64,000 bases of DNA from the NCBI RefSeq assembly GCF_003018255.1, contig NZ_CP027440.1, one strand, 5' to 3'. Made by a program: the position numbers. Source of the DNA: Escherichia coli (GTDB taxonomy: Bacteria > Pseudomonadota > Gammaproteobacteria > Enterobacterales > Enterobacteriaceae). Positions 42,101-45,100 of the stretch are shown here, piece by piece (within the stretch, counting starts at the first letter, position 1; each line of letters opens with the position of its first letter).

Positions 42101-45100
42101 CATGAAACTAGGCGAGATATCTCAGCTTGGGTTAGGGGGAGTAGTGTCTCAAGTTCTGCGATGCGTCGTTTGTAAAACCAACGGAATAGACTTGATTTGC
42201 GTCGAGCCAGCTCGCTTTTTTGTTTTGATTCTTCGGCAAGAGCCTCTTGAAGATCTGCTTTTATCTCTGCTCTTTGTTCTCGTGCTTTAGCAATCAAATC
42301 TCGTAAAGGTAAAAGGGAGGTACTTGTAAGGACTTCTACCGAAGCGCTGGATATTTCATTCATGCCAGCTACAGGCATATATATTTTAGCGTTCGATGGT
42401 GTGTTTTCTGGAGATGACCCAGACTCCAAATGAGGTTCTGTAGGGGCTGGATTTAATGGATTGGTAACTGAGTATCCATCATCATAGGGCAAGGTAGGTG
42501 TAGTATAAGATAAGCCTGTGCCCGGTAATCCGACAGTTGCTCTAACCCCTTTTTTACCAACATTGACAGTTGCGCCAGGCACGCCAATGCTTGCACTTAT
42601 TCCACGCTTGCCAATGTTGAGTCGAACGCCAGGAAATAGAGTAAAGGTTTGTCTGAAACGAAGAGACATAAAGTTATACCTATGTAGTTTTGTACACCAA
42701 AGTTCGAAATGTTTTTATATGAATATTGAGCTGATTCATAAGATTATTCCTAGCTCATCTTCATTCCGCCATGATACAACGGTTTGCTTGCAGGTGAAGA
42801 AAAACGTAAAAGCCCAATAATGATTGGTGGGCTGGTGGAGTTGAAACCGCAGGCTCGTCGTCTGCAAGAAAGTGCTGCGGCTGGCTGGTCAGCTTCTGAT
42901 AGTGAGAATATTGAATGATTTCAAGCTGTTATCGATTTTGCGTATTTTTTGTATGGGAGGATTTGTGCCTCCTCCCATCGGTCCTCCATGACTTTACGCC
43001 ACTGTCTCTAGGGCTGCTATGTGCCAGAAGCTGACATGGCTAGTCCCTAGGCACATTGACCAGCAGGTCATCCATCCCTTAACATATCGTTATGAAATTT
43101 AAAGGATCGATGTTATGGCTTATGAATTAACTTACAGACCCCTCGAATACGGATCGAATGAAAATTATCTTCGCAGAAGTTTGAAAGACCCTTCATTACT
43201 AATTCCTGAAAAAGAGATAGGATGTTTTCTAGTTCTCCAATCCTCATATGCACTACATGAAACTATTGGACTTTCAGCCCAAAACCTAGATATTTCATGG
43301 CAGTCTAACCAAAATTACTTATCGTCAAATTGTGATGGTGAGGCCCCTCTAGCTTGTTATCCTATTTATTTGATTACAGTTGGAGATGATGAAAATGAAA
43401 GGCTTGTTTACATCGGCAAGACATCATCGAAGAGCTCACGATTTTCTTCAGGCCATAGCGCAATTACTAAGTTACACCATCCTAAATATGACAATTTGTC
43501 AAAGCGTATATATTTGTGCTGCGTTGTTTTTTTAAAAAACAGCCAAACCATCCCAATAGAATGGATTAAGCCTTTTGATTTCGCTGAGAAACTATTGAGT
43601 GAATTTGAAGCGAACTTGATTTATTGGAATAAACCAGAGTTGAATACGCAACATATGAAGAAAGAACCTACATTTGAATATGGGCAAGTTCATGCACAAA
43701 ATGTAACTGGCGCAACGTATTTTTGGCATGATAAATTCATTTAGAACTATATAAACAAAACTTGAGTTAATTCTCTATTTTCCGCACTTTTTTTCCAATG
43801 AGTTCTACATATTGGTCAAGATTGTGCTCAAGGGCGCAATAAACTTAGTATTGCGTCTGTAATTCGCTCAGACTGTGTGAAAACGGTTTAAGCTTCAGAG
43901 GTGAATGCAAAAGAGGCTGACGCCTGCGCTTTTAAGTAAAATCTGCATCATCTTTCTATGTAAATTTTCTAAGAAGTCATCTAAACGCGTGACCTTCTGT
44001 CAGCAATCAGAGTTTTCATACAGCCTGCGTTCGAAGCTGCCCTTGGGCCCGCCTATGGCAGTTGAGTGCCAGAAGCGGACATTTTAACTAATATTCAGCA
44101 TGTTTATCATTATGTCACACGCAAAATGATAAATTAATATATTCAGAGGATTTTTTAACTCAAAAATGGCGTTGTAATTCAATGAACCATGCCTATAATC
44201 TAACATAAAAATAATATATCATTGAAAGGATAAGGCTTTGAATATTTACATTGATGAGTCGATACACGAGGAGTTTGGGTTTATGATCTTGGCTTATGTA
44301 GTTTGTAATCAGGATCCTCAGTCTGATATATACAAGATTCTTTCAGAACATTCAGTTGATGAACATCACTCATGCGCAAGAATGGATAAATCTGAATCTT
44401 TAAGAAATTTGAGGAGTAATCTTATTTCCTACTTAAACGCAAATTGTCGATGGGGGGCATTTATTATGCCAAGTGAGTATCGCCATCGTTCTTATGAGGA
44501 TGTGTCTTTTTTATTAAGCTTATTGATTAAGAATTTTCCAGACAGGAAAGGGAATATTTTTTTCGATGAAGGTATCATAAACCCTACAGAAGCTCTCAGT
44601 CTATGCTCTGATGAAGTCAAAGTTATAACATGCTCATCCCATGAAGTTTGTGGGATACAACTTGCTGATCTAGTAGCATCTTTTAGTGGTGTTAGGTTGA
44701 GAGAAACAATAACAGGAAAAGCAAAAATTTTAACTTACGGTTACGACTTCGGCTATGAGCCCCCAATAGAATCCCCGCTTGGATTTGAGCTTTTTGCTAC
44801 ACTTCGACAATCTATGCTCAGGGGAAATGAACCTCTTGGGAATGAGATGCCTGAATTTGCCACATTTAAAACTATTAATAAAGGATTGGTTTTGTCGAAA
44901 AACTTAACAACTGAATTTAGTCAGTTGGCATTAAAAACCTTTGGGGAAGTGTACTTAGGTTGCATCCATTAAATGTAATATTACTATTTATCAATTACTA
45001 GCAAAATTAAGCTAGGTGTTCCTAAGAATATAGGTGACGATGATACAACTGACTTCCGCTTTTCGCTCATAACAGACATTCACTACAGTTATGGTAGAAG

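What the first reader, a model, noticed from the sequence alone, without database searches (positions are those of the whole stretch)
44238..44972. DUF3800-like protein as the last gene before attR
The N-terminal IYIDES and the later GIQLADLVA motif match my memory of DUF3800, a family of unknown function often found in accessory regions. It sits adjacent to the attachment site, where cargo is most often exchanged.
Basis: inference. Interest (0 to 1): 0.55.

Follow-up and report, generated by a model that had tools for sequence, protein, structure and literature searches.

The report
DUF3800 nuclease cassette beside attR
The gene is real and encodes a DUF3800 protein, an RNase H-like enzyme of unknown function that probably cuts nucleic acids, and it sits as a self-contained 1-kb cargo cassette at the swappable end of an E. 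coli prophage, bounded by repeat sites that elsewhere flank known anti-phage genes.

Summary
ORF 44238-44972 (+, TTG start, 244 aa) matches Pfam DUF3800 (E=7e-7, almost the whole model). It carries both family motifs, D6-E7 and Q141xxD144. It is the last gene before the icd 3' fragment (45438-45605) that marks attR of a lambdoid prophage.

Relatives lie in mobile or defence settings: inside a type I R-M operon, next to SIR2-HerA, and in islands. The most likely role is a lysogen-expressed nuclease that protects against phage. That role is inferred, not shown.

The less expected result is that the gene is a discrete ~1010-bp module (44066-45077). The same module occurs in unrelated contexts in Yersinia, Enterobacter and Edwardsiella. 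It is delimited by two conserved 23-nt palindromic sites, which I call B and A. The same sites bound other cargo genes (PD-T7-1, TIR, SIR2-like) and a 200-aa tyrosine recombinase. I found no published description of this arrangement.

The parts
44238..44972 (+). DUF3800 coding sequence, 244 aa, TTG start. Invariant residues are D6, H10, E42, R82, D110, Q141, D144, K163, E184, R190, C242 and H244.
44172..44199 (+). Predicted sigma-70 promoter of the cassette: TTGTAA, 16 nt, TATAAT (10 of 12 matches). It is conserved in the Yersinia and Enterobacter copies. Prediction only.
44224..44230 (+). Shine-Dalgarno-like GAAAGGA, 7 nt before the TTG start, conserved in all enterobacterial copies.
44066..45077 (+). 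The ~1010-bp mobile module: 170 nt upstream, the coding sequence and 100 nt downstream. It is the only stretch shared (81-94% identity) with eight loci from other genera or contexts.
44058..44080 (+). Left junction site B (GCAGTTGAGTGCCAGAAGCGGAC; consensus TCCGCTnnGTGCCAGAAGCGGAC). Homology with E2348/69 runs through this site and ends just after GCGGACATT.
45055..45077 (+). Right junction site A (TCCGCTTTTCGCTCATAACAGAC; consensus TCCGCTnnTCGCTCAyAGCGGAC). Homology with the SF-173 prophage starts at this site.
45076..45440 (+). Non-coding stretch next to attR, conserved in icd-integrated prophages: 788 E. coli records cover at least 80% of it.
45438..45605 (+). Displaced 3' fragment of icd, which marks attR.
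43013..43035 (+). B-like site (GCTGCTATGTGCCAGAAGCTGAC) that opens the neighbouring cassette.
43115..43744 (+). Neighbouring cargo ORF, 209 aa, with a weak GIY-YIG nuclease match.
40466..41269 (-). Cargo ORF with DUF2971, matching the PADLOC defence candidate PDC-S31.
41467..42669 (-). Cargo ORF, 400 aa, DUF4236 / phrog_17982.

Best explanation
Shown. The ORF encodes a stand-alone member of the DUF3800 family. Its predicted structure has an RNase H fold. Four invariant acidic residues sit where type 2 RNase H enzymes hold their metal-binding active site: D6-E7 in strand 1, D110 at the end of strand 4, and D144 of the QxxD motif in the following helix. A family-specific C-terminal region of about 95 aa ends in an invariant YLGCIH.

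Also shown. The gene travels as a self-contained ~1-kb, 36% GC cassette delimited by a B site on the left and an A site on the right. It occupies the variable slot between the tail-fibre genes and attR of a lambdoid prophage integrated in icd.

Inferred. The cassette is transcribed in the lysogen from its own predicted promoter. The protein is a Mg/Mn-dependent nuclease that protects the lysogen from other phages. It most likely cuts an RNA-containing or structured nucleic acid made during infection. It needs no dedicated partner protein or RNA. The cassette entered this slot by recombination at the A and B sites.
For: Family membership and motifs. The DE and QxxD motifs are the ones given as characteristic of the family in PMC7736814.

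Selection: dN/dS 0.14-0.24.

Stand-alone status: no conserved neighbour in 59 loci. No DUF3800-associated or other relevant Rfam RNA family was found beside the gene in the window or in 36 homologue loci. The flanks show no excess folding, z about 0. In L066 and L067 only 26-40 nt upstream and 159 nt downstream are non-coding.

Defence setting: between hsdS and hsdR, next to SIR2-HerA in a prophage, in a Yersinia island with CHAT and Mrr, and next to a PDC-S31 gene both in Neptunomonas and in this window. Cassettes with the same junction sites carry PD-T7-1 (E 7e-157), HEC-08, a TIR protein (PDC-S35), a SIR2-like protein and PDC-S32. The same slot holds McrBC in strain EC98.

Cassette. Promoter. 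Low GC.
Against: No experiment on any DUF3800 protein was found in the literature searched.

The only PADLOC match is a weak 37-residue hit to PDC-M04A. There is no PHROG or NCBIfam family and no hit in 50,697 deposited phage genomes.

Similarity to RNase HII is structural only. Profile comparison with E. coli RNase HII gave 0.2% probability, so the residue equivalences rest on position within the fold, not on an alignment.

No terminator was predicted downstream on the + strand.

Context evidence is guilt by association. The two type I R-M loci come from one sample and are close relatives, so they count as one observation.

A nuclease expressed all the time with no inhibitor or trigger is left unexplained.
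Confidence: 0.55

Rival explanations
1. The protein is the mobility enzyme of its own 1-kb module, acting as a transposase or integrase with an RNase H fold that cuts and joins at the module ends.
Against: The same A and B sites flank unrelated genes, including the GIY-YIG-like ORF, the phrog_20520 gene, PD-T7-1 and a TIR protein. The module is single-copy in every E. coli genome that has it. Distant homologues lack these sites (control loci have 0 sites in 585 kb) and can sit inside R-M operons. The closest fold is RNase HII, not a transposase.
Confidence: 0.05
2. The gene serves the phage rather than the host. It could be a replication RNase H, or a counter-defence nuclease that destroys host RNA-DNA hybrid molecules or signalling RNAs such as retron msDNA.
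For: It has an RNase H-like fold. It is carried by a prophage. Other DUF3800 proteins are linked to retrons and RNA-guided systems (PMC7736814, PMC10910872).
Against: It is absent from 50,697 phage records and present in only 6 IMG/VR contigs. It lies in the low-GC non-essential end of the prophage, not in the replication module. Most homologues are chromosomal, in islands or R-M operons.
Confidence: 0.12
3. It works with a non-coding RNA, as proposed for other DUF3800 genes, and the RNA has simply not been recognised here.
For: Eleven unrelated RNA motifs are associated with DUF3800 genes (PMC5737381). About 170 nt upstream and 100 nt downstream travel with the gene.
Against: No Rfam DUF3800, drum or skipping-rope match was found in the window or in 36 homologue loci. 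The flanks fold no better than shuffled sequence. Flanks are not conserved beyond close relatives. In the R-M-embedded copies there is almost no room for an RNA.
Confidence: 0.1
4. It is a toxin-like or selfish stabilisation gene, or an inert passenger, with no role in phage defence.
For: Its function is unknown. It lies next to VapBC in Serratia. It is rare, present in 30 of 5426 E. coli genomes.
Against: Purifying selection holds across genera and catalytic residues are invariant across phyla. There is no candidate antitoxin.
Confidence: 0.15

Closest known systems
DUF3800 (Pfam PF12686) proteins in general
   Same: HMM match over almost the whole model, the DE and QxxD motifs, a length of 200-300 aa and the RNase H-like fold.
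   Different: This is a small subfamily: 478 representative clusters among 1.84 billion proteins. It has a conserved extra C-terminal region of about 95 aa that always ends in YLGCIH. Other DUF3800 models align only over the N-terminal core (TM about 0.5).
Type 2 RNase H (RNase HII, HIII, H2A)
   Different: No detectable sequence homology. About 17% identity over 139 aligned residues. The C-terminal region is different.
DUF3800 effectors of type VII retrons (PMC7736814)
   Same: Same Pfam domain, with a proposed RNase H2-like nuclease role.
   Different: The retron proteins lack the Q of QxxD and have a DEED set. Here Q141 and D144 are invariant, and no reverse transcriptase or msr/msd RNA is nearby.
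TPR-DUF3800 accessory proteins of Cas12a2, Cas12a3 and type VI-F loci (PMC10910872, PMC12669027, bioRxiv 10.64898/2026.01.16.699850)
   Same: Same domain in an immune setting.
   Different: No TPR domain and no CRISPR array or cas genes nearby. This is a single-domain, stand-alone protein.
Phage morons and the cargo slot at the attR end of icd prophages (for example mcrA of e14, from my own knowledge)
   Same: A low-GC gene with its own promoter between the tail-fibre genes and attR. The slot often holds restriction or defence genes.
   Different: The cassette has defined conserved junction sites on both sides. No terminator was predicted.
Integron gene cassettes and pdif modules of Acinetobacter plasmids
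   Same: Single-gene or few-gene modules bounded by short palindromic sites, arranged in arrays, associated with a tyrosine recombinase and often carrying defence genes.
   Different: There is no IntI-type integrase; the recombinase here has 200 aa and only the catalytic domain. The sites do not fit the attC consensus and are conserved in sequence rather than in structure. Genes lie in both orientations. The recombinase gene itself sits between an A and a B site.

Membership tests
DUF3800 (PF12686) | Significant match to the Pfam HMM over most of the model | tested here: met
   i-E 7.3e-7, model positions 1-144 of 149. The homologues' precomputed Pfam assignment is PF12686.
DUF3800 (PF12686) | N-terminal DE motif and C-terminal QxxD motif (as given in PMC7736814) | tested here: met
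   D6 is invariant and E7 is present in at least 90% of sequences. Q141 and D144 are invariant in 49 sequences.
DUF3800 (PF12686) | RNase H-like fold | tested here: met
DUF3800 genes with an associated RNA (Weinberg motifs DUF3800-I to XI, drum, skipping-rope) | One of the Rfam motifs next to the gene | tested here: not met
   None at E<=1 in 40000-47000. None at gathering score in 36 homologue loci.
Type VII retron effector | Adjacent or fused retron reverse transcriptase and msr/msd RNA | tested here: not met
   No reverse transcriptase is annotated in the cargo region and there is no retron RNA match.
Type 2 RNase H (RNase HII/HIII) | Sequence homology to the RNase HII family | tested here: not met
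   Pfam reports only DUF3800. The PDB sequence search found no RNase H. hhalign against E. coli RnhB gave probability 0.2%.
Type 2 RNase H (RNase HII/HIII) | RNA/DNA-hybrid or ribonucleotide-junction cleavage activity | not testable with these tools
   Needs biochemistry.
Known anti-phage defence system (PADLOC-DB v2) | Full-length match to a system model | tested here: not met
   Only PDC-M04A, E 6.5e-5, residues 1-37.
Phage moron | Own promoter and terminator, non-essential position, atypical composition | tested here: inconclusive
   Promoter predicted. 36% GC against 48-58% in the tail genes. No + strand terminator predicted. Transcription was not measured.
Integron cassette | attC site with R''/L''/L'/R' boxes and an IntI integrase | tested here: not met
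   The junction sites have a different, sequence-conserved consensus with no covariation beyond it. The associated recombinase has 200 aa and scores far below the cutoff of the NCBIfam XerA/integron-integrase model, 58 bits against 220. No recombinase is present in the window.

The most novel reading that the evidence does not exclude
The DUF3800 gene may be one cargo of an undescribed system in enterobacterial prophages and islands that shuffles cassettes.

Genes, many of them anti-phage, lie between two 23-nt palindromic sites. B is TCCGCTnnGTGCCAGAAGCGGAC and A is TCCGCTnnTCGCTCAyAGCGGAC. Where cassettes abut, the two sites form a 63-66-nt A-spacer-B junction.

A 200-aa tyrosine recombinase with only the catalytic domain is encoded between an A site (62 nt upstream) and a B site (22-23 nt downstream). 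It would catalyse excision and exchange of cassettes. That would explain how the same 1-kb DUF3800 module reached an E. coli icd prophage, a Yersinia island, an Enterobacter island resembling the E. coli CP4 prophage-like islands, and an Edwardsiella prophage.

A weaker version is that the junctions are miniature derivatives of a recombinase-encoding element, and merely supply portable homology for phage recombinases.
Probability: 0.4. Interest if true: 0.8.

Novelty: new member of a known kind. Interest (0 to 1): 0.55.

Why it matters
DUF3800 is a widespread family with no tested function, although it recurs beside structured RNAs, retrons and RNA-targeting CRISPR effectors. A natural E. coli prophage copy that needs no partner gene or RNA and carries its own promoter is about the simplest system in which to test the family. 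The 1-kb module can be cloned, challenged with coliphages and mutated at four residues.

Separately, the junction sites and the small recombinase offer a concrete mechanism for how single defence genes hop between prophages and islands. If that mechanism is real, the sites could be used as a search handle for new defence genes.

Tried and rejected
- **Associated RNA.** Rfam at E<=1 on 40000-47000 and at gathering score on 36 homologue loci found nothing relevant. The module flanks fold no better than shuffled sequence. Flanks are conserved only among close relatives.
- **Partner protein.** All-against-all comparison of ORFs from 59 loci found no shared neighbour. The DUF2971 proteins of the window and of Neptunomonas are only weakly alike, though both match PDC-S31.
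- **Sequence link to solved structures.** None was found. The profile comparison with E. coli RNase HII was negative, so I could not align catalytic residues directly. Model coordinates are not exposed, so I could not measure whether H10, C242 and H244 sit near the active site.
- **Other libraries.** NCBIfam and PHROGs gave no family. tblastn against phage genomes gave no hit.
- **Literature.** Searches for DUF3800, PF12686, the protein accession, the site sequence and cassette systems found no functional study and no description of the sites.
- **Folded structure of the A-B junction.** Covariation was no better than shuffles for either a two-hairpin or a one-long-hairpin model. The palindromes look like conserved binding sites rather than RNA or single-strand structures.
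- **Same sites beside the recombinase homologues in alphaproteobacteria (L024, L036).** None were found in L036 and only one loosely similar palindrome in L024.
- **tRNA proximity of homologues.** Six of 58 loci is about what chance would give. Two loci within 2 kb of the single-copy tmRNA gene is more than chance would give.
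Full report
**1. The observation**

A GAAAGGA ribosome-binding sequence lies 7 nt upstream. IYIDES is residues 3-8 and GIQLADLVA is residues 139-147. 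Pfam reports a single domain, DUF3800 (PF12686), i-E 7.3e-7, covering residues 2-148 and model positions 1-144 of 149. The identical protein is named 'DUF3800 domain-containing protein' (WP_001028881.1) in RefSeq E. coli genomes.

**2. The setting**

An E. coli genome identical over 43000-45450 shows a lambda-like late operon on the + strand: head, tail, tape measure, J, Lom, tail fibre and tail-fibre assembly genes. A cargo block follows, then a 168-nt icd 3' fragment, then iraM, ycgX and bluR.

- In window coordinates the icd fragment is 45438-45605. Its translation is the C-terminus of isocitrate dehydrogenase.
- This is the layout known for elements integrated in icd, such as e14 (my own knowledge). 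The fragment therefore marks attR. attL is not in the window.
- The cargo block is 32-44% GC, against 48-58% for the tail genes.
- The block holds a DUF2971 protein (40466-41269, -), a 400-aa DUF4236 protein (41467-42669, -), a 209-aa ORF with a weak GIY-YIG match (43115-43744, +) and the DUF3800 gene.
- Nothing is annotated in the 466 nt between the DUF3800 stop codon and the icd fragment.

**3. The protein**

- *Homologues.* A database search found 152 homologues at E<=0.001, nearly all 244-265 aa and full length.
- *Conserved residues.* In an alignment of 49 diverse members, D6, H10, E42, R82, D110, G139, Q141, A143, D144, K163, G172, E184, R190, C242 and H244 are invariant. The protein always ends in YLGCIH. 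D6-E7 and Q141xxD144 are the DE and QxxD signatures described for DUF3800 (PMC7736814).
- *Family size.* An exhaustive profile search gives only 478 representative clusters at E<=1e-3, and 218 at E<=1e-30, among 1.84 billion proteins. Almost all are single-domain.
- *Selection.* dN/dS against orthologues from Yersinia, Enterobacter, Edwardsiella, Serratia and two viral contigs is 0.14-0.24.
- *Predicted structure.* The AlphaFold model is confident: pLDDT 92.8, pTM 0.90.
- *Fold matches, predicted structures.* Foldseek against the AlphaFold database returns almost only DUF3800 proteins. A full-length group has TM 0.8-0.98 and the rest of the family aligns at TM about 0.5 over the core only.
- *Sequence links.* No solved structure is related by sequence. 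A profile comparison with E. coli RNase HII is negative.

By position in the fold, D6-E7 lie in strand 1, D110 at the end of strand 105-110 and D144 in helix 139-159. This arrangement matches the type 2 RNase H active site, but that is inference from topology, not from a residue alignment. I conclude the protein is very probably an active metal-dependent nuclease. Its substrate is unknown.

**4. What the family is known for**

DUF3800 genes are associated with eleven unrelated structured RNA motifs, plus the drum and skipping-rope motifs, none with a known function (PMC5737381). The domain is the effector of type VII retrons, either fused to the reverse transcriptase or adjacent to it (PMC7736814, PMC8632793). 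A TPR-DUF3800 protein accompanies some Cas12a2, Cas12a3 and type VI-F loci (PMC10910872, PMC12669027, bioRxiv 10.64898/2026.01.16.699850). I found no experimental test of any DUF3800 protein.

None of these partners is present here.

- No DUF3800-associated or other relevant Rfam family matches beside the gene in 40000-47000 at E<=1 or in 36 homologue loci at gathering score.
- The flanks that travel with the gene fold no better than shuffled sequence and are not conserved beyond close relatives.
- No neighbouring protein is shared among 59 loci.

**5. Contexts of homologues**

- In Edwardsiella the gene sits in the early region of a lambdoid prophage, next to SIR2 and a HerA-like ATPase.
- In Yersinia it lies in an island with a transposase, a CHAT protease and an Mrr-like nuclease.
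- In Serratia it follows a VapBC pair.
- In Neptunomonas it directly follows a DUF2971 protein, near an integrase.
- In two related metagenomic genomes it lies between hsdS and hsdR of a type I R-M operon, the position where accessory defence genes such as prrC are known to sit (the prrC comparison is my own knowledge).
- In one genome it lies next to a large ROCO/LRR protein.
- In Enterobacter it lies at the end of an island resembling the E. coli CP4 prophage-like islands, after DUF932-like, antirestriction-like, RadC-like and CbeA-like genes (my reading of the ORF translations).
- Two loci have the single-copy tmRNA gene within 2 kb.

The gene is absent from 50,697 deposited phage genomes. 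It is present in 6 IMG/VR contigs, in 7 alphaproteobacterial plasmids as distant relatives and in 30 of 5426 complete E. coli genomes. In the records inspected (the 20 listed) it sits at the icd locus. PADLOC gives only a weak N-terminal hit to a candidate system. PHROGs and NCBIfam give nothing.

**6. The gene is a discrete cassette**

Against eight related loci from different genera and contexts, the only shared DNA in an 8-kb neighbourhood is 44066-45077, at 81-94% identity with sharp ends. The module includes a predicted promoter at 44172-44199 (TTGTAA, 16 nt, TATAAT), conserved in the close copies.

At the ends are two related 23-nt palindromic sites.

- B lies on the left (44058-44080). 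Its consensus is TCCGCTnnGTGCCAGAAGCGGAC.
- A lies on the right (45055-45077). Its consensus is TCCGCTnnTCGCTCAyAGCGGAC.
- In the Enterobacter locus and one viral contig the module is flanked on both sides by a complete A, 18-19 nt spacer, B junction.
- A B-like site (43013-43035) also precedes the neighbouring 209-aa ORF.

The homology breakpoints fall at these sites.

- E2348/69 is identical to the window up to and through B, and diverges right after GCGGACATT.
- The SF-173 prophage is unrelated up to A and about 91% identical from A onward, through the 365-nt stretch next to attR.
- SF-173 has the order B, a different gene (phrog_20520), A at the same position.
- That 365-nt stretch is present in about 790 E. 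coli genomes.
- Other strains have McrBC, acetyltransferase genes or only sitABCD before it.

**7. The junction element more widely**

A 15-mer could reach a number like that by chance in a collection this large. However, most hits carry the rest of the B palindrome, and many carry A at a fixed distance upstream.
- Thirty-eight distinct junctions align without difficulty into a 63-66-nt element.
- Base-pair counts are no better than shuffles for either a two-hairpin or a long-hairpin model. The palindromes are therefore conserved as sequence, as expected for protein-binding sites.
- Several viral contigs carry arrays of the form B, gene or genes, A-B, gene, A-B and so on. Sites are co-oriented while genes lie in either direction.
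- In Yersinia a copy sits in most of the intergenic gaps of the island around the gene.
- One junction variant matches 859 of 5426 E. coli genomes, at 1-3 places per genome. It is therefore not a high-copy repeat of the REP type.

**8. A small recombinase**

Three E. coli contexts of the junction each contain a 200-aa 'site-specific integrase'. It has only the tyrosine-recombinase catalytic domain (Pfam E 7e-19) and scores far below the cutoffs of the Xer and integron-integrase models.

- The gene is in 863 of 5426 E. coli genomes.
- I scanned 16 viral contigs whose recombinase is at least 83% identical. All 16 contain A or B sites. An A site lies 62 nt upstream of the start codon in ten of them (72 nt in one more). 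A B site lies 22-23 nt downstream of the stop codon in five.
- By contrast, 585 kb of control loci contain no site. The controls are non-enterobacterial, so they are imperfect.
- Around the recombinase gene the inner half-sites are degenerate and the outer halves are kept.
- Recombinases at 58-68% identity show no sites of this consensus.
- Homologues at 51-57% identity lie immediately upstream of, or 3.5 kb from, DUF3800 homologues in two alphaproteobacteria. I could not find matching sites there.
- The window itself contains no such recombinase.

**9. Cargo of such cassettes**

- The gene next to the recombinase in strain AR434 is PD-T7-1 (E 7e-157). That system comes from a functional selection in E. 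coli (my own knowledge of Vassallo et al. 2022).
- In ATCC 25922 and an ST131 strain the corresponding gene is HEC-08.
- Other cassettes encode a TIR protein (PDC-S35), a SIR2-like protein and PDC-S32.
- The window's DUF2971 protein and the Neptunomonas neighbour of DUF3800 both match PDC-S31.
- About half of the sampled cassettes have no match.

**10. Interpretation**

Shown:
- family membership;
- the fold;
- the conserved acidic residues;
- purifying selection;
- the position of the gene;
- the module boundaries and the junction sites;
- the co-occurrence of the sites with a small recombinase and with defence genes.

Inferred:
- nuclease activity;
- expression in the lysogen;
- an anti-phage role;
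- recombination at A and B as the route of acquisition.

I put the defence-nuclease reading at about 0.55. The rivals are a mobility enzyme, a phage-serving RNase H or counter-defence enzyme, an RNA-partnered function, and a selfish or inert gene. Each fits fewer of the observations.

For the junction system I cannot tell site-specific cassette exchange by the recombinase from a second model. In that model the 66-nt junctions are miniature derivatives of a recombinase-bearing element and act as portable homology for phage recombinases. My literature searches found no description of either, but those searches cover only open-access text.

**11. Verdict**

The finding as written is correct. By itself it is a new member of a known but uncharacterised family. 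Its value lies in giving DUF3800 a simple, partner-free E. coli test case. It also exposes a junction-site and recombinase architecture that may explain how cargo turns over at prophage ends.

Noticed in passing
window 44058-44080, 45055-45077, 43013-43035; L069 5775-5839 and 6818-6882; L002 4377-4441, 6552-6574, 8818-8840, 13072-13094; L195 775-797, 3987-4009, 5001-5065: Conserved palindromic junction sites A (TCCGCTnnTCGCTCAyAGCGGAC) and B (TCCGCTnnGTGCCAGAAGCGGAC) form 63-66-nt A-spacer-B elements between cargo genes in enterobacterial prophages and islands. Homology breakpoints between strains fall at these sites. There is no Rfam match and I found no literature on them.
   Followed up: partly
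L195 2339-2941; L196 6607-7209; L197 7047-7649; L203-L216, L228, L241: A 200-aa tyrosine recombinase with only the catalytic domain is encoded between an A site (62 nt upstream) and a B site (22-23 nt downstream). It is present in 863 of 5426 E. coli genomes. Homologues at 51-57% identity lie beside DUF3800 homologues in L036 and L024. It is not present in the window.
   Followed up: partly
L197 5383-6729; L195 843-1940; L077 1405-2295; L112 8178-9074 and 9713-10603: Cassettes bounded by the same sites encode PD-T7-1, HEC-08, a TIR protein (PDC-S35), a SIR2-like protein and PDC-S32. Several other cassettes have no match in PADLOC and could be untested defence genes.
   Followed up: partly
window 43115-43744 (+): The 209-aa ORF directly upstream has a weak GIY-YIG nuclease match (Pfam E 0.005; phrog_16890 E 9e-27). 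It is preceded by a B-like site, so it looks like a second cassette.
   Followed up: partly
window 40466-41269 (-); L065 6285-6902: The DUF2971 protein of the cargo block matches the PADLOC candidate PDC-S31 (E 2e-20). A PDC-S31 protein also lies directly upstream of the DUF3800 homologue in Neptunomonas. This could be a recurrent pairing, but the two DUF2971 proteins are only weakly alike.
   Followed up: partly
window 41467-42669 (-): In the window this is one intact 400-aa ORF (DUF4236 N-terminus; phrog_17982 full length, E 4e-193). In the otherwise matching RefSeq genome CP027462.1 it is annotated as two separate coding sequences, which suggests a disruption or a split call there.
   Followed up: no
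window 43745-44057: A non-coding stretch with higher GC and excess predicted folding on the + strand (z -3.1). It is 98% identical to an unannotated stretch in E2348/69 that lies among IS elements and next to a type I R-M system. Its nature is unknown.
   Followed up: no
window 42960-43012; L064 4700-4780; L076, L099, L141, L160, L177: A conserved ~80-nt sequence (…GAGAGGATTT..CCTCC…CCATGACTTTAC.CCACTGTCTCTAGGGCTGCT) precedes some B sites. In L158 and L166 the same position holds what looks like the reverse complement of a tRNA 3' half. These may be relics of tRNA attachment sites.
   Followed up: no
window 40121-40319 (+): Full-length Rfam match to IS009 (RF02111, 203 bits, E 4e-50), lying inside the tail-fibre assembly gene.
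   Followed up: no
window 45614-45656 and 46478-46520: Two copies (88% identical) of a 43-nt hairpin, GAAACGGGCGT…ACGCCCGTT. One lies just after the icd fragment and the other 864 nt further on. They look like duplicated terminators.
   Followed up: no
L066 and L067 7001-7741: A DUF3800 homologue is embedded between hsdS and hsdR of a type I R-M operon that also contains a nucleotidyltransferase and substrate-binding pair.
   Followed up: no
E. coli S1-KEN-03-A and S1-KEN-04-A (hits H17, H18, H106, H107): An IS5-family element (ISKpn26) is inserted about 30 nt downstream of the DUF3800 stop codon, at about window 45001.
   Followed up: no
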